Origin: Clostridia bacterium
GTDB taxonomy: Bacteria; Bacillota; Clostridia; UMGS1883
Reading direction: 5' to 3'
Assembly (NCBI GenBank): GCA_045615705.1
Contig: JAZLFH010000012.1
Span: forward strand, 4,417 to 68,416
Length of the DNA: 64,000 bases
The notes beneath the pieces are model-generated. The model worked only from the letters and a program-made list of their open reading frames with translations, was not told where the DNA came from and ran no database searches. Positions within the stretch are counted from its first letter, which is position 1, and each line of letters starts with the position of its first letter. Of the stretch, positions 3,773 through 60,588 are shown one piece after another. The translations under genes were made by a program, and so were the position numbers.

Positions 3773-4492
3773 ATGAATGTTTATAAGACAGACAAAATCG
3801 AAGAACTCATTTTGGGAAATTCCTATGTCGGCAGAGGTATTGTAATAGGAAAAACCAAAGACGGAAAGAATGCGTGCAGTGCTTATTTTATTATGGGACG
3901 CTCTCAAAACAGCCGTAACAGAGTGTTTTTAGAGAAAAACGGTGAGGTTTTTACAGAGCCTTTTGATGCTTCAAAGGTGGAAGACCCAAGCCTTATAATT
4001 TACAGTGCAATAAGAAAATTTGAGAACAAATTAATCGTTACAAACGGCAATCAGACCGACACGATTTATGATTTCATAAAGGAAAACAAGACTTTTAAAG
4101 AAGCACTTGAAACGAGAGAGTTTGAACCGGATGCACCCAATTTCACACCAAGAATCAGCGGTATATTAGAGTTTAAGAATAACGATTTTACATACGAAAT
4201 GAGCATACTTAAAAGTGCGGATGAAGTAGGAAGTGCCTGCAATCGCTACACATTTTCCTACACTCCGTTAAACGGAGTGGGACACTTTATTCATACATAT
4301 ATAGGGGACGGGAATCCGCTTCCGACATTTATGGGCGAACCCGAAAGAGTTGAAATCGGAAACGACATTGACGAGTTTACAAACACTCTTTGGGACGCAC
4401 TTGACCACGAAAACAGAATTTCACTTTATGTCAGATACACAAACCTTGAAACAGGAAAAGAAGAAAACAGGCTTATAAATCTTAATAAGTGA
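3773..4492 (+). CDS. IMP cyclohydrolase, PurO-like (archaeal type)
   Basis: The N-terminus YVGRGIVIGKTKDG...AYFIMGRSQNSRNR resembles the IMP_cyclohyd family. It sits directly upstream of an AICARFT-only gene. Confidence 0.7.
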   Translation: MNVYKTDKIEELILGNSYVGRGIVIGKTKDGKNACSAYFIMGRSQNSRNRVFLEKNGEVFTEPFDASKVEDPSLIIYSAIRKFENKLIVTNGNQTDTIYDFIKENKTFKEALETREFEPDAPNFTPRISGILEFKNNDFTYEMSILKSADEVGSACNRYTFSYTPLNGVGHFIHTYIGDGNPLPTFMGEPERVEIGNDIDEFTNTLWDALDHENRISLYVRYTNLETGKEENRLINLNK

Positions 4493-4502
4493 GGAAAATG
4501 AA

Positions 4503-5687
4503 ATGAAAGAATTTGAATTAAAATACGGTTGTAACCCAAACCAAAAGCCTTCAAAAATTTTTATGCAAAATGGCAGTGACCTACCCATTGAAATCTTAAA
4601 CGGCAGACCGGGTTTTATAAACTTTTTGGATGCGTTTAATTCCTGGCAACTTGTAAAGGAATTAAAAGAGGCAACAGGACTTTGTGCGGTTACATCTTTT
4701 AAGCATGTAAGCCCCACATCGGCAGCGGTAGGATTACCGCTTTCGGATAAACTTAAAAGAGCCTGCTTCGTTGACGATATAAAAGACCTTGATAAATCAC
4801 CTCTTGCCTGTGCTTATGCAAGAGCGAGAGGAACCGACAGAATGTGCTCGTTCGGAGATTGGGTAGCACTTTCCGATACTTGTGATGAAATCACCGCAAG
4901 CATGATTAAAAGAGAGGTTTCGGACGGTGTCATTGCACCGGGATATACGGATAAGGCACTTGAAATCTTAAAAACAAAGAGAAACGGCAACTATAACATC
5001 GTAAAAATTGACGAAAATTATGTACCCGAAGAAATTGAGCATAAAGATGTTTTCGGAATTACATTTGAGCAGGGCAGAAACAATTTTAAGATAAACAAAG
5101 AACTTTTGGAAAATGTCGTTACAAAGAATAAGACTCTTCCCGAATCCGCAATAAGAGACCTTATTATTTCTCTTATAACACTTAAATACACACAGTCAAA
5201 TTCAGTTTGTTTTGCCTATGACGGACAAGCAATCGGTGTGGGTGCGGGACAACAGTCAAGAATTCACTGTACCCGATTAGCGGGAAGCAAGGCGGATACT
5301 TGGTTTTTGCGTCAGTGCGACAAGGTTTTAAACCTTCCGTTTAAAGAAGACATTAAAAGAGCGGACAGAGATAATGTAATTGACGGTTATATTAATAAAA
5401 ACGAGGAAGATGTATGTCAAGACGGCGTTTGGCAGAAGTTCTTTACTTCCCGTCCGGAACCTCTTACAGAGGAAGAAGCGAAAGCCTATCTTTCGACCAT
5501 TGACGGCGTTTCGCTCGGTTCTGACGCATTTTTCCCGTTTTCGGACAACATTGAAAGGGCTAAGAGAAGCGGTGTAAAATATGTCGCAGAACCCGGTGGC
5601 TCCATAAGAGACGATTTGGTAATTGAATGTGCTGATAAATACGGTATGGCAATGGCGTTTACGGGTATGCGTCTTTTCCATCATTAA
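4503..5687 (+). CDS. purH: AICAR formyltransferase (PurH C-terminal domain only, no MGS/IMPCH domain)
   Basis: LKYGCNPNQ is near the N-terminus. The canonical C-terminus reads SDAFFPFSDNIERAKRSGVKYVAEPGGSIRDD...FTGMRLFHH. Confidence 0.85.
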   Translation: MKEFELKYGCNPNQKPSKIFMQNGSDLPIEILNGRPGFINFLDAFNSWQLVKELKEATGLCAVTSFKHVSPTSAAVGLPLSDKLKRACFVDDIKDLDKSPLACAYARARGTDRMCSFGDWVALSDTCDEITASMIKREVSDGVIAPGYTDKALEILKTKRNGNYNIVKIDENYVPEEIEHKDVFGITFEQGRNNFKINKELLENVVTKNKTLPESAIRDLIISLITLKYTQSNSVCFAYDGQAIGVGAGQQSRIHCTRLAGSKADTWFLRQCDKVLNLPFKEDIKRADRDNVIDGYINKNEEDVCQDGVWQKFFTSRPEPLTEEEAKAYLSTIDGVSLGSDAFFPFSDNIERAKRSGVKYVAEPGGSIRDDLVIECADKYGMAMAFTGMRLFHH

Positions 5688-5699
5688 TGGGTGATATTT

Positions 5700-6974
5700 A
5701 TGAAACTGCTTGTTGTAGGAAGTGGCGGCAGAGAACACGCCATGATAAAAAAGTTAAAAGAGAATAAGAGTGTTGACAAAATTTTTGCAGTCCCCGGCAA
5801 CGGCGGGATGAAAGATGATGCGGAGTGCGTGCAAATTTCGGCTACCGACATTGAAAAAATAGTCGATTTTGCAGTTAAAAACGAAATCGACTATGCTGTC
5901 GTTGCTCCCGATGACCCACTTGTTTTGGGCTTGGTTGATGCATTGGAGGAAAAAAACATTCCTTCATTCGGTCCCAAAAAAGATGCTGCCATAATTGAGG
6001 GGAGTAAGATTTTTTCAAAAAATCTCATGAAAAAATATAATATCCCGACTGCCGAATACGAGGTTTTTGAAGATGTAAAAAAAGCACTTGATTATGTAAA
6101 AGAATGCAAAATTCCTACCGTTATCAAGGCGGACGGATTAGCACTCGGCAAGGGAGTAATTATCGCACAGACAAGGCAGGAAGCGGAAAATGCGATAAAT
6201 GAAATGATGAACGACAAAAAATTCGGAAAAAGCGGTGAAAAAATCGTTATTGAAGAATTCTTGGAAGGCCCGGAAGTGTCCGTGCTTGCTTTTACTGACG
6301 GAAAAACTATTGTGCCTATGGTTTCATCAATGGACCACAAAAGAGCAGGAGATGACGACACGGGTTTAAATACCGGCGGTATGGGAACGGTTGCACCAAA
6401 TCCGTACTACACGGAAAAAATTCAAAAAGAGTGTATGGAAAAAATCTTTATTCCCACAATGAACGCCATGAATAAAGAGGGAAGAACATTTAAAGGTTGC
6501 CTTTATTTCGGACTTATGATAACTTCAAGCGGAGCAAAGGTGATAGAGTATAACTGCCGTTTCGGAGACCCCGAAACTCAGGTTGTACTTCCTCTTTTAA
6601 AAAGCGACCTTTTAACCGTTATGCAGGCAGTTACAAACGAAAAACTTTCAAGCGTGGAAGTAAAAATAAGCACCGAGAGTGCGTGCTGTGTAATTATGGC
6701 GTCAAAGGGATATCCGCAAAGTTACGAAAAAGGATATGAAATTAAAATCCCGAGTGAATTAAAAGACTTTGTTTATGTAGCGGGAGCAAGAGAAGAAGAA
6801 GGAAAACTTCTCACAAACGGCGGAAGAGTTTTGGGCGTAACATCAACGGCGGACAGTTTAAAAGATGCGATAAAACTTTCGTATGAAAGAGTTAAAAAAA
6901 TATCTTTCGATAATGCGTATTACCGCAGTGATATAGGAAAGAGAGCCTTAGAGGCAAAGGAGCCGATTAAATGA
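5700..6974 (+). CDS. purD: GAR synthetase
   Basis: MKLLVVGSGGREHA and an ATP-grasp region with GGMG point to PurD. The gene sits inside the pur operon. Confidence 0.95.
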   Translation: MKLLVVGSGGREHAMIKKLKENKSVDKIFAVPGNGGMKDDAECVQISATDIEKIVDFAVKNEIDYAVVAPDDPLVLGLVDALEEKNIPSFGPKKDAAIIEGSKIFSKNLMKKYNIPTAEYEVFEDVKKALDYVKECKIPTVIKADGLALGKGVIIAQTRQEAENAINEMMNDKKFGKSGEKIVIEEFLEGPEVSVLAFTDGKTIVPMVSSMDHKRAGDDDTGLNTGGMGTVAPNPYYTEKIQKECMEKIFIPTMNAMNKEGRTFKGCLYFGLMITSSGAKVIEYNCRFGDPETQVVLPLLKSDLLTVMQAVTNEKLSSVEVKISTESACCVIMASKGYPQSYEKGYEIKIPSELKDFVYVAGAREEEGKLLTNGGRVLGVTSTADSLKDAIKLSYERVKKISFDNAYYRSDIGKRALEAKEPIK

Positions 6975-35320: not shown

Positions 35321-35394
35321 GGCACCATAGCCAAGTGGTAAGGCAGAGGCCTGCAAAGCCTTTATCCCCAGTTCAAGTCTGGGTGGTGCCTCCA
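35321..35394 (+). tRNA. tRNA-Cys (GCA)
   Basis: The cloverleaf was read by eye. The acceptor is GGCACCA/TGGTGCC, the anticodon loop is CTGCAAA, the T-loop is GTTCAAGTC, and CCA is encoded. Confidence 0.95.
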
Positions 35395-35395
35395 G

Positions 35396-35427
35396 AAAAA
35401 ACGACAAGTGGAAACTTGTCGTTTTTT
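35396..35427 (+). terminator. intrinsic terminator after tRNA-Cys
   Basis: The sequence is AAAAAACGACAAGT-GGAA-ACTTGTCGTTTTTT. Confidence 0.6.
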
Positions 35428-35640
35428 CAACTAAATCCGTCCTTACGGACGGGTGAAATCGCCTGCGGCGATGAAATCTGCTTCGCAGATGAAATCCGAC
35501 TTCGTCGTGTTAAAGAGGACGGATTTAATTTCACCAAAGCCGAAGGCTTTGATTTCATCCAAAACAAGTTTTGGATTTCACCGTGACGGAGTCACGATTT
35601 CATTAATAATAACAGATATCTATATTGTCTACGATTTTCA
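35423..35640 (+). repeat. modular word/mini-hairpin array, left inverted copy (trails tRNA-Cys)
   Basis: The words GTGAAATC and GATGAAATC(x2), then ATTTCACC, GATTTCATC, GATTTCAC and GATTTCAT, alternate with short hairpins. It is the reverse complement of 36278-36448. Confidence 0.75.
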
Positions 35641-35677
35641 AAAAAAAAGCACTTTGCGAAACGCAAAGTGCTTTTTT
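35641..35677. terminator. bidirectional terminator downstream of the small zinc-ribbon gene
   Basis: The sequence is AAAAAAAAGCACTTTGCG-AAA-CGCAAAGTGCTTTTTT. Confidence 0.6.
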
Positions 35678-35703: not shown

Positions 35704-35991
35704 TTATGCTCGGAAATTATGTCCGCATTCGTGACAATAGTAAATTCTTCTTCTGTTTGAAAACCATCTTCTGGATTGCCAAACATGTCCTTTTCCTGAT
35801 GTATTCTTTAAAATAGCCATCCACCAGTCATAACAAATGAAAATCATTAAACCAATACACCATTTTATCATTATCCATATAAAATAATAGATTCCGAACA
35901 AAATAGTCCATAAACAACCATGTTTATTCATTTCATTTGACAGCTGAACCTTTGTACTACCGCATTTTGGACATTTTACATTGATTGCCAA
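35704..35991 (-). CDS. small membrane protein with a split zinc ribbon (CPKC ... CHEC)
   Basis: 95 aa with a TTG start 9 nt after AAAGGAG. The N-terminal CPKCGS and C-terminal CHECGH flank two Trp/Ile-rich TM segments. I recognise no family. Confidence 0.45.
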   Translation of the reverse strand: MAINVKCPKCGSTKVQLSNEMNKHGCLWTILFGIYYFIWIMIKWCIGLMIFICYDWWMAILKNTSGKGHVWQSRRWFSNRRRIYYCHECGHNFRA

Positions 35992-36277: not shown

Positions 36278-36448
36278 AAAAATCGTGTATGATATAGATA
36301 TCCGATTATTTTTATGAAATCGTGGCTTTGCCACGGTGAAATTAAATCCGTCCTCTTTAACCCGACGAAGTCGGATTTCATCTGCGATAGCAGATTTCAT
36401 CGCCGCAGGCAATTTCACCCGTCCGATAGGACGGATTTAGTTGAAAAA
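36278..36448 (-). repeat. modular word/mini-hairpin array, right inverted copy (trails the displaced tRNA-Arg 3' fragment)
   Basis: Its reverse complement aligns with 35423-35640, apart from a 47-nt module indel and loop or compensatory changes. Confidence 0.75.
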
Positions 36449-36476
36449 AGCACCGACAAAGTCGATGCTTTTTTCA

Positions 36477-36494
36477 TGGCGTGCCATGAGGGAT
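36477..36494 (-). other. duplicated 3'-terminal 18 nt of tRNA-Arg (att-like direct repeat)
   Basis: TGGCGTGCCATGAGGGAT is identical to 36675-36692, which is the 3' end of the intact tRNA-Arg. Confidence 0.75.
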
Positions 36495-36674
36495 ACAGAT
36501 GCTACGCATCTTGCGTGCTTGCCCACCCAAATGCTTCGCATTTCGGTACCGGGCTTTGCACCAACTTCGCTAAAAACGGTTATCAACCGTTTTTTTAACG
36601 CTCGTTGCCCTCTCAGGGTTTAAGTCCCAATATAGAAACATTAAAGCAGAGAACATAAAATGTTCTCTGCTTTT
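36495..36674. mobile_element. 180-bp insert between tRNA-Arg and its displaced 3' fragment (remnant or miniature integrative element?)
   Basis: It is bounded by the 18-nt direct repeat. It contains its own terminator next to the tRNA and further mini-hairpins (AGATGC-TAC-GCATCT, AAATGC-TTC-GCATTT). It has no ORF. Confidence 0.35.
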
Positions 36675-36751
36675 TGGCGTGCCATGAGGGATTCGAACCC
36701 CCGACCTTATGGTCCGTAGCCATACGCTCTATCCAGCTGAGCTAATGGCAC
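36675..36751 (-). tRNA. tRNA-Arg (ACG)
   Basis: The minus strand reads GTGCCATTAGCTCAGCTGGATAGAGC...CTACGGA...GGTTCGAATCCCTCATGGCACGCCA. Confidence 0.95.
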
Positions 36752-60105: not shown

Positions 60106-60205
60106 AAACACCATCTCCATTAGTATATGTAGATAATTTTATCATATAATGTCGATTTTGTCTATAAAAATTTGGGTATGTGATTTTAATAAAAAAATAA
60201 TGCAA

Positions 60206-60304
60206 TGATGTGATGTGTTCCATTCACTCACCGTAGGTGAACATCATGTCCGAAGGACACATCACACACGAAGTGTGCATCATGTTCCGTGAGGAACACA
60301 TCGT
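60206..60304 (-). repeat. variant word/mini-hairpin array (CATCA/GATG words)
   Basis: The hairpins are TCACC-GTA-GGTGA, TGTCC-GAA-GGACA, CACAC-GAA-GTGTG and TGTTCC-GTGA-GGAACA. They are separated by ACATCA(T/C) words. The outer pairing is GATGTGTTCC/GGAACACATC. Confidence 0.6.
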
Positions 60305-60418
60305 TCAAAAAAGTCCCTTTTGTTTTATCACATAGTTTTAAAATATCAACGAAAAAGACATTGATAAATTTTTAAGTTTAGATTCAGCCATGTTGTTATC
60401 ACCTCAAATATTTTATTT

Positions 60419-60541
60419 AGTGAAATATCGGCTTTGCGGATGTGAAATGAAATAAGTCCTGTTACGCGCGCAGGCATTTCACACGCCGTAGGCGTATTTC
60501 ACGCACGAAGTGCATTTCACAAATCCGAAGGATTTATTTCG
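60419..60541 (-). repeat. word/mini-hairpin array trailing tRNA-Tyr and its terminator
   Basis: The minus strand has GTGAAATG, GTGAAATA and GTGAAATG, followed by CATTTCAC and ATTTCAC. The hairpins are AATCC-TTC-GGATT, GCAC-TTC-GTGC and ACGCC-TAC-GGCGT. Confidence 0.7.
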
Positions 60542-60544
60542 CTT

Positions 60545-60585
60545 AAAAAACCTCTTTTGTCTTGGTAGACAAAAGAGGTTTTTTT
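60545..60585 (-). terminator. terminator downstream of tRNA-Tyr
   Basis: The sequence is AAAAAACCTCTTTTGTC-TTGGTA-GACAAAAGAGGTTTTTTT. Confidence 0.6.
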
Positions 60586-60588
60586 ACA

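What the first reader, a model, noticed from the sequence alone, without database searches (positions are those of the whole stretch)
35453..35604. Array grammar: conserved words alternate with tri-loop mini-hairpins and fold into nested helices (stacked multiway junctions)
The first half of the array has the words GTGAAATC (35453-60), GATGAAATC (35470-78) and GATGAAATC (35488-96). They are separated by the 9-11 nt hairpins GCC-TGC-GGC, TGC-TTC-GCA and CGAC-TTC-GTCG.

The second half has the complementary words ATTTCACC, GATTTCATC (35551-59), GATTTCAC (35574-81) and GATTTCAT. They are separated by AAAGCC-GAA-GGCTTT, CAAAAC-AA-GTTTTG and CGTGAC-GGA-GTCACG.

The words pair perfectly in nested order: 35453-60 with 35574-81, 35470-78 with 35551-59, and AAATCCG 35492-98 with CGGATTT 35520-26. 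The predicted fold is a long interrupted stem with a side hairpin on each strand at every interruption. Alternatively each hairpin can extend into its flanking ATC/GAT, giving competing conformers.

The loops are GAA/GTA/GGA on one strand and TTC/TAC on the other. GNA tri-loops closed by C-G are known to give exceptionally stable DNA mini-hairpins such as d(GCGAAGC). That points to a single-stranded DNA or cruciform role at least as much as an RNA role.
Basis: partly seen in the sequence, partly recalled or inferred. Interest (0 to 1): 0.7.

Follow-up and report, generated by a model that had tools for sequence, protein, structure and literature searches.

The report
Gut-1 hairpin array, tRNA-end cassette
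The array is real: its first half is the known but function-less "Gut-1" RNA motif, and the whole two-armed structure appears to be the conserved end-piece of a small selfish DNA cassette that lodges right after tRNA genes and is tied to an enigmatic ring-shaped four-helix-bundle protein family.

Summary
Seven RTGAAAT/ATTTCAY words alternate with mini-hairpins at 35453-35603.

The first half (35428-35500) is Rfam Gut-1 (RF01706, 67.5 bits), a motif of unknown function. The second half is a diverged inverted Gut-1-like arm (33.6 bits). This convergent two-arm layout recurs in 47 elements from gut and rumen Clostridia and twice more in the window.

The mini-hairpins are strongly supported by compensatory changes. 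A different long-range helix (35432-42 with 35517-27) does covary.

The array is one piece of a conserved module: terminator, arm A, arm B. It starts immediately after the CCA end of tRNA or tmRNA genes. Identical 1.15-kb copies sit behind two different tRNAs.

About a fifth of the elements carry, just past arm B, a gene for a pentameric four-helix-bundle protein (PF05635, "23S rRNA IVS protein"). Seven of seven independently sampled PF05635 genes also have inverted ~7-nt word arrays.

Best reading: a cis-acting, protein-recognised repeat module of a small selfish cassette. The window copy is a cargo-less derivative. Whether the folded form is RNA or DNA is unresolved.

The parts
35321..35394 (+). 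tRNA-Cys(GCA) gene ending in an encoded CCA. The cassette begins at the next base.
   Evidence: ARAGORN and Rfam tRNA at 66.6 bits. In 33 of 44 family members the module is preceded by CCA plus an A-run.
35395..35427 (+). Cassette-borne intrinsic terminator: G, A-run, stem CGACAAGT / ACTTGTCG, T-run. It is the conserved first component of the module.
   Evidence: Sequence. Homologous terminators (GACAAGT..ACTTGTC and TTTGTCTACCnGACAAA cores) precede elements in unrelated genomes. The terminator of window copy 2 is identical to that of L084, which follows a tmRNA gene.
35428..35500 (+). Arm A, the Rfam Gut-1 motif. It comprises CAAC, a degenerate word w0 (CTAAAT), hairpin P1 (CCGTCC-TTAC-GGACGG), then words at 35453, 35471 and 35489 separated by hairpins CGCC-TGC-GGCG and CTGC-TTC-GCAG.
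   Evidence: RF01706 at 67.5 bits against a gathering score of 50. Hairpin covariation.
35432..35442 (+). 5' strand of the long-range helix P0 (TAAATCCGTCC). It can pair either with the local GGACGG (35447-52, forming P1) or with the distal copy at 35517-27.
   Evidence: An exact distal repeat is found in one orientation only in most elements. Cognate duplex energy is -13.9 vs -9.1 kcal/mol for non-cognate pairs, with 0 of 10000 permutations reaching the cognate mean. The w0 variants covary: TAAAT/ATTTA, TCAAAT/ATTTGA, GAAAT/ATTTC.
35497..35507 (+). Fourth arm-A hairpin, CGAC-TTC-GTCG.
35508..35527 (+). Centre: a degenerate word-like stretch (TGTTAAAGA) followed by the 3' strand of P0 (GGACGGATTTA, 35517-27).
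35528..35603 (-). Arm B, an inverted Gut-1-like array. Its words on the - strand lie at 35528-34, 35552-58, 35575-81 and 35597-603. They are separated by hairpins at 35535-51 (loop GAA on the + strand), 35559-74 and 35582-96 (loop GGA on the + strand).
   Evidence: A sub-threshold Gut-1 match at 35547-35624(-), 33.6 bits, E 2.6e-4. The convergent '+++----' pattern recurs in 47 elements.
35604..35637 (+). Cassette tail. AACAGATATCTATATT looks like the decayed promoter (-10) that drives the four-helix-bundle gene in cargo-bearing copies. Homology with window copy 2 ends at ...ACGATTTT.
   Evidence: Comparison of copies 1 and 2 and of L103 (tgtgatataat). This is an inference.
35642..35676 (.). 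Bidirectional terminator (A9-GCACTTTGCG-AAA-CGCAAAGTGC-T6). It is probably the original terminator of tRNA-Cys, displaced by the cassette, and it also serves the convergent ORF at 35704-35991(-).
   Evidence: Sequence. By analogy with L123, where the original tRNA-Pro terminator follows the cassette. This is an inference.
36283..36475 (-). Window copy 2 of the same cassette type. It has a terminator, arm A (Gut-1, 36370-36443, 60.9 bits) and an arm B lacking two units. It follows an 18-nt duplicate of the tRNA-Arg 3' end.
60420..60588 (-). Window copy 3, of a different subfamily (CGAAATAAATCC type). It has a terminator, arm A (Gut-1, 60471-60544, 75.5 bits) and arm B (60420-60453), directly after the CCA of tRNA-Tyr.
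60338..60391 (-). Truncated remnant of the four-helix-bundle (PF05635) gene, with a ribosome-binding site, reading MAESKLKNLSMSFSLIF*.
   Evidence: It sits at the same distance from arm B as the intact genes. tblastn matches residues 1-15 at 60% identity, and 12 of 17 residues are identical to the L013 protein.

Best explanation
The array is the cis-acting repeat module of a small selfish DNA cassette that occupies the position immediately 3' of the CCA end of tRNA and tmRNA genes.

**Anatomy of a full cassette**
- Its own terminator hairpin.
- Arm A (the Gut-1 motif), with about five heptamer words separated by mini-hairpins.
- Arm B, the same grammar inverted.
- A promoter.
- A gene for a pentameric four-helix-bundle protein (FHB, PF05635/TIGR02436).
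- Sometimes a small MazG-like gene.

The copy at 35395-35637 is a cargo-less (MITE-like) derivative that kept only the terminator and the two arms.

**Proposed working**
- The lineage-specific heptamer words (RTGAAAT here) are the specific recognition sites for the FHB ring.
- The palindromic spacers fold into mini-hairpins when the module is single-stranded. Folding draws successive words together so that one arm can present its words to one ring.
- The two inverted arms, together with the alternative P1/P0 pairing, give a symmetric and switchable assembly. The cassette needs this assembly for its maintenance or propagation. In cargo-bearing copies it probably also controls the adjacent fhb promoter.

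**Shown:** the anatomy, hairpin and P0 covariation, the exact CCA boundary, identical copies behind two different tRNAs, tandem stacking, and the association with FHB.

**Inferred:** that FHB binds the words, that the module acts in mobilisation, and which nucleic acid (ssDNA or RNA) is the folded form.
For: **(1) Recurrent architecture**
- 47 convergent two-arm elements were found, never divergent.
- All three window copies lie behind tRNA genes. One element in L084 lies behind a tmRNA gene.
- The upstream neighbour is co-oriented in about 36 of 42 cases.
- 33 of 44 elements are preceded by CCA, an A-run and a homologous terminator.

**(2) Mobility**
- A 100% identical cassette of about 1.15 kb follows the CCA of tRNA-Pro(cgg) and of tRNA-Arg(acg).
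- At the tRNA-Arg site it is stacked in front of a second cassette.
- A sister lineage has the identical tRNA-Pro gene and promoter but no cassette. The sequences diverge exactly after the CCA.

**(3) Structure under selection**
- Spacers fold at -5 to -6 kcal/mol against -1 for shuffles.
- 20 of 22 local pairs show compensatory changes, with 0 of 500 shuffles as good.
- P0 covaries.

**(4) Link to FHB**
- 12 of 13 FHB genes in the 120 pattern-derived loci lie within 121 nt of a word array.
- The Pfam and TIGRFAM assignments are clear.
- The top 120 of more than 8000 homologues are about 85-93% identical.
- The window holds a truncated fhb remnant next to copy 3.

**(5) Generality**
- In a sample chosen by protein similarity only, 7 of 7 FHB genes have inverted arrays of roughly 7-nt words.
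- One of these is a tRNA-CCA / terminator / two-arm element that uses the word GTGATAT and carries a 56%-identical FHB (L144).
- Akkermansia uses GATATAACC with C(GNA)G mini-hairpins.
- The Coxiella IVS has GACAGAT heptamers upstream of its FHB ORF, and the protein is a homopentameric toroid (PMC4990558; PDB 2RLD has five chains).
- The word changes with FHB divergence.

**(6) Cargo-less copies**
- These copies keep intact words and paired stems. That is expected for cis sites used in trans and not for a private operator.
Against: - No binding data exist for any FHB protein, and no catalytic protein is encoded in the cassette, so the mobilisation mechanism is unknown.
- Only about one fifth of the elements carry fhb.
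- The window contains no intact fhb gene.
- The two identical copies may be within one species, so they could reflect intragenomic conversion rather than transposition.
- The cassette-free tRNA-Pro allele has unrelated DNA downstream, so it is not a clean empty site.
- Three of the FHB-word cases (L029, L037 and L115) were ascertained through a GTGAAAT pattern search.
- Strand evidence conflicts:
  - Loop polarity favours the ATTTCAY strand.
  - The A/G alternation opposite T at the stem base favours the GTGAAAT strand.
- Single-arm Gut-1 elements without a partner arm also exist.
Confidence: 0.48

Rival explanations
1. A stand-alone structured small RNA, which is the Rfam annotation. Arm A would be transcribed in the GUGAAAU sense, either as read-through from the tRNA or from its own promoter, and would act in trans or bind a protein. 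Arm B would be a second, convergent copy.
For: - The Rfam hit is above threshold, and Weinberg et al. rated the motif a likely RNA on covariation.
- The module has a fixed orientation relative to upstream transcription.
- The position opposite the final T of each word alternates A/G, giving U-A or U.G only on this strand.
- Single-arm variants have a 5' hairpin and a trailing hairpin, like a small gene.
Against: - The motif starts directly after the T-run of an intrinsic terminator, leaving no room for a promoter.
- Internal stems have essentially no G.U pairs. Arm A has 2 G.T and 6 A.C against 356 Watson-Crick pairs. Arm B has 8 G.T and 7 A.C against 498.
- On this strand the loops are C(UNC)G, which are not known stable RNA loops. 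The stable GNA/GNRA loops lie on the opposite strand.
- This reading does not explain the CCA boundary, the stacking, or the link to FHB.
Confidence: 0.2
2. On one continuous single strand (RNA or DNA) the words of arm A pair with the anti-words of arm B in nested order. This gives an interrupted long stem with side hairpins, comparable to the RNase III-cleaved stems that flank FHB ORFs in 23S rRNA intervening sequences.
For: - RNAalifold places word:anti-word helices in the consensus.
- Extended words are complementary between arms in a subfamily-specific way: R1:Y7 and the flanking base.
- L079 has a matched variant pair, GTGAAGT / ACTTCAC.
- Inverted heptamer arrays that could form a stem are the rule around FHB genes.
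- The IVS stem is cleaved by RNase III.
Against: - Only 2 of 14 word pairs show any double change.
- Word numbers differ between arms and between copies.
- Cognate arms pair no better than non-cognate arms.
- The model is incompatible with the covarying P0 helix unless pseudoknotted.
- Extended local hairpins sequester 4 of the 7 nt of each word.
- Subfamily-specific word identity in both arms is equally expected if one protein reads both arms.
- In these cassettes the arms do not enclose the ORF.
Confidence: 0.12
3. A DNA-level recombination site, analogous to an integron attC, an IS200/IS605 end or a REP element. The mini-hairpins would form on single-stranded or extruded DNA and be read by a trans-acting recombinase or HUH enzyme that inserts cassettes after CCA, with FHB irrelevant or merely cargo.
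For: - Insertion is orientation-specific, lies at a short conserved junction (CCA|GAAAA), and shows no target duplication. Cassettes stack, and their right ends finish in CA or CCA.
- Stems are perfect Watson-Crick pairs with no wobble.
- d(C-GNA-G) and d(GCGAAGC) loops are strongly strand-biased. That these are exceptionally stable DNA mini-hairpins is established knowledge (Hirao and colleagues) and was not tested here.
- Cargo-less derivatives persist.
Against: - No recombinase or HUH gene is linked to the cassettes.
- The favoured loop strand is opposite in the two arms, unlike IS200/IS605 ends or attC, which use one strand.
- Arrays of 4-5 hairpins per arm have no counterpart in those systems.
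- The co-variation of word with FHB lineage is left unexplained.
Confidence: 0.15
4. A host-beneficial insulator behind highly expressed stable-RNA genes, for example a back-up or bidirectional block to read-through transcription, or a supercoil or gyrase site like the BIME elements of E. coli.
For: - The position is always just past a terminator of a tRNA or tmRNA gene or a co-oriented gene.
- The two arms face both directions of incoming polymerase.
Against: - The hairpins lack U-tracts.
- The terminator itself belongs to the transferable module.
- Identical copies occur at different tRNAs, and a cassette-free allele exists.
- The FHB linkage and the presence of similar arrays inside operons and 23S rRNA in other phyla point to a selfish element rather than a host device.
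Confidence: 0.05

Closest known systems
Gut-1 RNA motif (Rfam RF01706; Weinberg et al. 2010, PMC2864571)
   Same: Arm A matches the covariance model above threshold. It has three hairpins whose bases are A-U and U.G/U-A pairs taken from GUGAAAU words, leaving GAA linkers. The carriers are gut Clostridia.
   Different: The published motif is a single arm described only from human-gut metagenome reads, with no function, context or partner. Here it is one half of a two-arm module that also has a terminator, a covarying closing helix (P0), a fixed position after tRNA or tmRNA CCA ends, and a linked protein gene. The strand and molecule assignment (RNA, GUGAAAU sense) is questioned by the loop and wobble statistics.
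23S rRNA intervening sequences carrying a PF05635 ('S23p', four-helix-bundle) ORF, e.g. Coxiella and Leptospira
   Same: - A small selfish insert in or next to a stable-RNA gene.
- The same protein family, a pentameric toroid.
- Heptamer repeats next to the ORF.
- Inverted repeats.
- Frequent decay of the ORF (PMC4990558).
   Different: - IVSs sit inside 23S helices 25 or 45 and are removed from the RNA by RNase III. Here the insert lies after the mature 3' end of the tRNA and brings its own terminator and promoter.
- The heptamers are interrupted by covarying mini-hairpins.
- Both arms lie on one side of the gene.
REP/BIME and REPIN elements of Proteobacteria
   Same: - Extragenic arrays of short palindromes in alternating orientation, located after the 3' ends of genes.
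- A conserved short word beside each stem.
- Multi-copy, and apparently mobilised in trans.
   Different: - There is no GTAG word and no RAYT gene was seen.
- Hairpins within one array differ in sequence rather than being copies of one unit.
- The module sits at a precise CCA junction.
- The taxa are different.
Integron gene cassettes and attC sites
   Same: - Cassettes stack at one defined site, apparently with the newest nearest to it.
- The recombination site would be defined by structure and short conserved 7-mers rather than by its whole sequence.
- Promoter-proximal logic applies.
   Different: - No IntI gene and no R''/L''-L'/R' organisation.
- The flanking 7-mers are direct repeats, not inverse cores.
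- Many hairpins are present instead of one.
- Cassettes carry their own promoter and terminator.
DGR accessory protein Avd and the hairpin/cruciform at DGR targets
   Same: - Avd is a pentameric four-helix bundle. Pfam bAvd-like gives weak hits for two of the FHB proteins.
- DGR target recognition uses a GC-rich DNA hairpin with a GNRA-like loop. This point is from my own knowledge and was not tested here.
   Different: There is no reverse transcriptase and no template or variable repeat near any of the cassettes examined.

Membership tests
Rfam Gut-1 (RF01706) | Covariance-model score at or above the gathering score of 50 bits | tested here: met
   Arm A at 35428-35500 scores 67.5 bits. The other window copies score 60.9 and 75.5 bits.
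Rfam Gut-1 (RF01706) | The second half of the finding (arm B) is also a member | tested here: not met
   35547-35624(-) scores 33.6 bits, below the gathering score (local E 2.6e-4). It has the same grammar with longer stems and spacing of 22-24 nt.
Rfam Gut-1 (RF01706) | Three hairpins joined by GUGAAAU, with covariation in the stems | tested here: met
Rfam Gut-1 (RF01706) | Functions as an RNA (Rfam type: Gene; sRNA) | not testable with these tools
   No expression data are available. The sequence evidence is mixed.
FHB (PF05635) selfish elements / IVS-like | A PF05635 gene inside or adjacent to the element | tested here: inconclusive
   It is absent from the copy in the finding. A truncated remnant lies next to window copy 3. 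An intact gene lies next to about 11 of 47 related elements and in the identical cassettes L122-L141.
FHB (PF05635) selfish elements / IVS-like | Inverted arrays of a roughly 7-nt word | tested here: met
   This holds here and in 7 of 7 FHB loci sampled by protein similarity.
FHB (PF05635) selfish elements / IVS-like | Location in or at a stable-RNA gene | tested here: met
   The element lies directly after the CCA of tRNA-Cys. Family members lie after many tRNA isotypes and after tmRNA.
REP/BIME | A conserved GTAG next to an imperfect palindrome, with an associated RAYT | tested here: not met
   The word is RTGAAAT. No IS200-like gene was found in the window ORFs near the copies. The genome-wide RAYT search was not tested.
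Integron attC | Inverse core RYYYAAC and core GTTRRRY bracketing one imperfect palindrome, with an IntI nearby | tested here: not met
   Read directly from the sequence. The flanking words are direct repeats and there are several hairpins.
Intrinsic terminators | A GC-rich stem followed by a U/T run | tested here: not met
   The mini-hairpins are followed by (A)TTTCA or GTGAAAT, not by T-runs. Only the flanking hairpins at 35402-35427 and 35642-35676 qualify.
tRNA-targeting integrative islands (tyrosine integrase type) | A direct repeat of the tRNA 3' end at the far boundary, and an integrase gene | tested here: not met
   No duplicate of 11 nt or more of the tRNA-Cys 3' end lies within 3 kb. 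Such duplicates exist for other small inserts, for example at tRNA-Arg, but those inserts lie upstream of the Gut-1 module rather than around it.

The most novel reading that the evidence does not exclude
Gut-1 double arrays, the 23S rRNA intervening sequences that carry an 'S23p' ORF, and the inverted heptamer arrays around four-helix-bundle genes in Cyanobacteria, Bacteroidota, Spirochaetes, Chloroflexi and Verrucomicrobia would all be versions of one unrecognised, cross-phylum class of minimal selfish element.

Its only signature protein would be a pentameric ring that reads a lineage-specific heptamer array. The element would colonise stable-RNA genes and operon junctions by a mechanism that needs folded single-stranded nucleic acid and no element-encoded recombinase.
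Probability: 0.3. Interest if true: 0.85.

Novelty: new variant of a known kind. Interest (0 to 1): 0.62.

Why it matters
Gut-1 has been an orphan motif since 2010, and PF05635 "IVS proteins" have had no function since the 1990s despite thousands of copies and solved structures.

Linking the two gives both a testable hypothesis: a ring protein that reads heptamer arrays. It also offers a defined, very small model cassette of about 1.15 kb with two genes. And it offers an explanation for why hairpin arrays sit behind tRNA genes in many gut Clostridia.

If the cassettes move without their own recombinase, the mechanism would be new. Such a mechanism could also explain how rRNA intervening sequences spread.

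At minimum, genome annotators should stop calling arm A an independent sRNA gene without considering its context.

Tried and rejected
- **Exact look-ups of window proteins.** Nothing is on record, so the source organism is not identified beyond a low-GC Clostridia-like genome.
- **Wobble-pair strand test.** It was uninformative, because there are almost no G.T or A.C pairs on either strand.
- **Viral contigs.** Two pattern scans gave 240 loci. Only 6 held true elements and none held an FHB gene, so there is no evidence that phages carry the cassette.
- **Clean empty site.** The cassette-free tRNA-Pro allele has different downstream DNA.
- **Own promoter for arm A or arm B.** Only weak 9-of-12 consensus matches were found, no better than background.
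- **Rejected on sequence grounds:**
  - CRISPR
  - type III toxin-antitoxin repeat arrays (their units are identical tandem copies, unlike here)
  - a tRNA-like cloverleaf formed by P0 plus three hairpins (the loops are too small and ARAGORN is silent)
  - parS/NBS half-sites
  - Tn7-like end arrays (these do not explain the palindromic spacers)
- **Literature.** No paper in the held library links PF05635 with word arrays, apart from the Coxiella heptamer note.
Full report
**1. The observation**

- RTGAAAT occurs on the + strand at 35453, 35471 and 35489.
- It occurs on the - strand at 35528, 35552, 35575 and 35597.
- The window holds 70 such words against 42 +/- 6.6 in shuffles. Seventeen or eighteen of them lie in three clusters, at 35.45, 36.3-36.4 and 60.4-60.5 kb.
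- Both strands of 35428-35625 fold far better than shuffles, with z from -5.0 to -5.9 for RNA and DNA parameters.

Two details need correction.
- One "hairpin" has a 2-nt loop.

**2. What is already known**

The first half (35428-35500, + strand) is a full-length match to Rfam RF01706, the Gut-1 RNA motif. It scores 67.5 bits against a gathering score of 50.

Two more matches lie at 36370-36443(-) and 60471-60544(-).

The Rfam consensus pairs the AU of one word with the GU or AU of the next.

Weinberg et al. (2010) reported Gut-1 only from human-gut metagenome reads. They rated it a likely non-coding RNA on covariation and gave no function or context.

**3. The whole element**

The second half is a weak inverted Gut-1 match, 33.6 bits on the - strand.

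A pattern scan of one genome per species returned 120 loci. About 60 of them, all Clostridia from gut or rumen, carry true elements. Of these elements, 47 have the same convergent layout, '+++----' or '++++----', and none is divergent.
- Arm A has word spacing of 18-22 nt.
- Arm B has word spacing of 22-26 nt.

Spacers between words are palindromes.
- Mean MFE is -5 to -6 kcal/mol against -1 for shuffled spacers, over 183 distinct units.
- In 17 aligned elements of one subfamily, 20 of 22 local-stem pairs show changes on both sides.
- In that alignment 94.6% of cells are paired against 80% in shuffles, and 0 of 500 shuffles reach the observed score.
- The partner-slide controls collapse.

The mini-hairpins are therefore under selection.

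**4. Long-range pairing**

They score -49 to -52 kcal/mol, against -43 for purely local hairpins and -64 for the MFE. RNAalifold also draws two such helices.

The evidence for them is nonetheless thin.
- Only 2 of 14 pairs ever change on both sides.
- Word numbers differ between the arms and between copies. The neighbouring window copy lacks two arm-B units.
- Cognate arms pair no better than non-cognate arms.

The arms do share the same extended word in each subfamily: GATGAAATC in type I, GTGAAAT(A/G) in type II and ATGAAATA in type III. That is equally expected if one protein reads both arms.

A different long-range helix does covary. I call it P0.
- The degenerate first word plus the 5' strand of the first hairpin (TAAATCCGTCC, 35432-42) is complementary to the local GGACGG. 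It is also complementary to a distal copy at the centre (GGACGGATTTA, 35517-27).
- Across elements this segment changes identity (CCGTCC, CCACCC, AATCCC, TCGTTCC, TTGCCC, TCGCC, TTATGCC) and the distal copy follows.
- Cognate duplexes average -13.9 kcal/mol against -9.1 for non-cognate ones, and 0 of 10000 permutations reach that mean.
- Variants of the first word covary with the centre.

**5. Strand and molecule**

Internal stem pairs are almost purely Watson-Crick.

| Arm | Watson-Crick | G.T | A.C |
|---|---|---|---|
| A | 356 | 2 | 6 |
| B | 498 | 8 | 7 |

There is thus no RNA-style wobble signature on either strand.

The loops are strongly polar, and in the same way in both arms.
- On the GTGAAAT strand, C(TNC)G occurs 71 times against 10 for C(GNA)G.
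- Read on the ATTTCAY strand, the loops are therefore C(GNA)G and C(GNRA)G.
- GCGAAGC occurs 13 times on the ATTTCAY strand and 0 times on the other.

These are the classic very stable DNA mini-hairpin loops. That is established knowledge and was not tested here.

Against this, the base opposite the last T of each word alternates A/G. It therefore stays paired (U-A or U.G) only on the GTGAAAT strand.

The folded form is single-stranded, but whether it is DNA or RNA, and which strand it is, remains open.

**6. Context: a cassette at the tRNA CCA end**

All three window copies follow tRNA genes (Cys; Arg; Thr-Tyr) on the tRNA strand, directly after a terminator.

In the wider set:
- About half of the elements lie 26-120 nt behind a co-oriented tRNA of many isotypes. 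One lies behind tmRNA.
- The upstream neighbour is co-oriented in about 36 of 42 cases.
- 33 of 44 elements are preceded by CCA, an A-run and a terminator.

The terminators are themselves homologous between genomes. The one before window copy 2 is identical to one behind a tmRNA gene in another genome. The conserved unit is therefore terminator + arm A + arm B.

Look-ups of a linked protein showed a 100% identical segment of about 1.15 kb directly after the CCA of two different tRNAs.
- Behind tRNA-Pro(cgg) it is followed by what looks like the original terminator.
- Behind tRNA-Arg(acg) it is followed by a second cassette that again begins GAAAAG plus a terminator.

A sister lineage has the identical tRNA-Pro gene and promoter but no cassette, and the two sequences diverge exactly after the CCA.

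In the window, the element spans 35395-35637. It lies between the CCA of tRNA-Cys and a bidirectional terminator (35642-35676) that is probably the original one. This explains why the array is boxed in by terminators.

**7. The linked protein**

About 11 of the 47 elements are followed, 14-54 nt beyond arm B, by a promoter and a gene of 115-122 aa. The gene belongs to PF05635 (23S_rRNA_IVP) and TIGR02436, "four helix bundle protein".
- In the identical cassettes a 110-aa MazG-like gene follows the FHB gene.
- Of 13 such genes in the 120 loci, 12 lie within 121 nt of a word array.
- Window copy 3 is followed by a truncated remnant, MAESKLKNLSMSFSLIF*.
- The family is huge. There are more than 8000 hits, and the top 120 cluster representatives are about 85-93% identical.
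- The closest solved structure, 2RLD, has five chains.
- The Coxiella literature describes a homopentameric toroid of unknown function. It is encoded in a 23S rRNA intervening sequence and preceded by tandem GACAGAT heptamers.

**8. Generality**

I sampled FHB genes by protein similarity alone, from plasmid and phage records. In 7 of 7 the gene is accompanied by inverted arrays of a roughly 7-nt word.

| Locus | Source | Word or arrangement |
|---|---|---|
| L142 | Monoglobus | gene wedged between hsdS and hsdR |
| L145 | Treponema | GTGAAAG-like, about 40 copies |
| L146 | Bernardetia | TTAGTGA x16 |
| L147 | Nostoc | TAATTCG x4 on each side |
| L148 | Chlorohelix | inverted word arrays |
| L143 | faecal scaffold | a true Gut-1 element |
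| L144 | faecal scaffold | tRNA-CCA / terminator / two-arm element, word GTGATAT, 56%-identical FHB |

- Akkermansia (L007) has tandem units of GATATAACC words and C(GNA)G mini-hairpins, and one unit carries the FHB gene.
- FHBs at least 67% identical to the L054 protein all use GTGAAAT, while more distant ones use other words.
- I found no paper in the held library that describes this association.

**9. Interpretation**

The best-supported reading is that the array is the cis-acting repeat module of a small selfish cassette that sits at tRNA and tmRNA 3' ends. The window copy is a cargo-less derivative.

The words are most plausibly the recognition sites of the FHB ring.
- About five word-like sites per arm would match five subunits.
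- The word changes with the protein lineage.
- The last words abut the fhb promoter.

The hairpins would be structural spacers that must fold in a single-stranded state.

That cargo-less copies keep intact words and compensated stems argues for a role in propagation or maintenance in trans, rather than a private operator.

FHB binding, the mobilisation chemistry and the RNA-versus-DNA question are all inferences.

Each is listed with its evidence and the result that would refute it.

**10. Verdict**

The feature is real.

Its context turns an orphan motif into a testable system that is connected to the unexplained IVS-protein family.

I rate it a new variant of a known kind, with interest 0.62.

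Noticed in passing
window 36477-36494 and 36675-36692; insert 36495-36674: The last 18 nt of tRNA-Arg (TGGCGTGCCATGAGGGAT on the + strand) are duplicated 181 nt downstream. They bracket a small insert with its own terminator and several GC-TNC-GC mini-hairpins. The Gut-1 cassette follows the distal duplicate. Similar duplications of 150-570 nt occur in L003, L032, L065, L076, L115 (that one contains an FHB gene), L118 and L120.
   Followed up: partly
window 60204-60303: A second word/mini-hairpin array that uses a different word. AATGATG/TGATGTG comes first, then (A/G)CATCA(Y) alternating with GTCC-GAA-GGAC, ACAC-GAA-GTGT and GTTCC-GTGA-GGAAC. It lies next to the fhb remnant of copy 3. The same AATGATG/CATCATT word family appears in L012 and L065.
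   Followed up: partly
window 60338-60391 (- strand): A truncated four-helix-bundle (PF05635) gene remnant with a ribosome-binding site lies 28 nt beyond arm B of copy 3. No intact copy of this gene occurs in the 64-kb window.
   Followed up: yes
L144 (MT835815.1), about 560-900: A sister family with the same architecture (tRNA-CCA, terminator, P0, two arms, FHB gene) in which the heptamer is GTGATAT/ATATCAC instead of GTGAAAT.
   Followed up: partly
L007 5700-7050 (Akkermansia MAG): Tandem units of about 190 bp made of GATATAACC/GGTTATATC words and GC-rich mini-hairpins with GNA loops. One unit carries an AT-rich FHB gene flanked by a direct repeat of about 40 bp from the array.
   Followed up: partly
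L142, L145, L146, L147, L148: FHB genes in Monoglobus, Treponema, Bernardetia, Nostoc and Chlorohelix are flanked by inverted tandem arrays of 7-8-nt words. They are often wedged between genes of defence operons (hsdS/hsdR; DUF1156/HEPN). The Nostoc heptamers resemble the long-known STRR repeats of cyanobacteria, which is my own recollection and was not tested.
   Followed up: partly
L065 about 3990-4110 and 5400-5540; L118 about 6500-6680: The small inserts bracketed by tRNA 3'-end duplicates share a conserved core (AATGCAAYGCGGACGAGCGYTGCC...GCTGGA...GCGAAC). They can pair their ends like an acceptor/T-arm minihelix and may be a separate tRNA-end element or RNA.
   Followed up: no
L122-L141 (e.g. 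L123 2845-3177): In the identical cassettes the FHB gene overlaps by 4 nt a 110-aa gene with a weak MazG (PF03819) match. This suggests a two-gene cargo.
   Followed up: no
L122 1-2049; L134 55-942: Other mobile DNA abuts the left end of the cassette at the same ...CCA|GAAAAG junction: two large serine recombinase genes in L122 and DUF2800/PDDEXK genes in L134. The junction may be a general integration hot spot.
   Followed up: no
L002, L011, L012, L022, L050, L061, L075, L105, L117: Single-arm Gut-1 elements carry four words, a 5' hairpin, a degenerate GTTRAGG word and a trailing hairpin. These are the type used in the original Rfam seed and have no inverted partner arm.
   Followed up: partly
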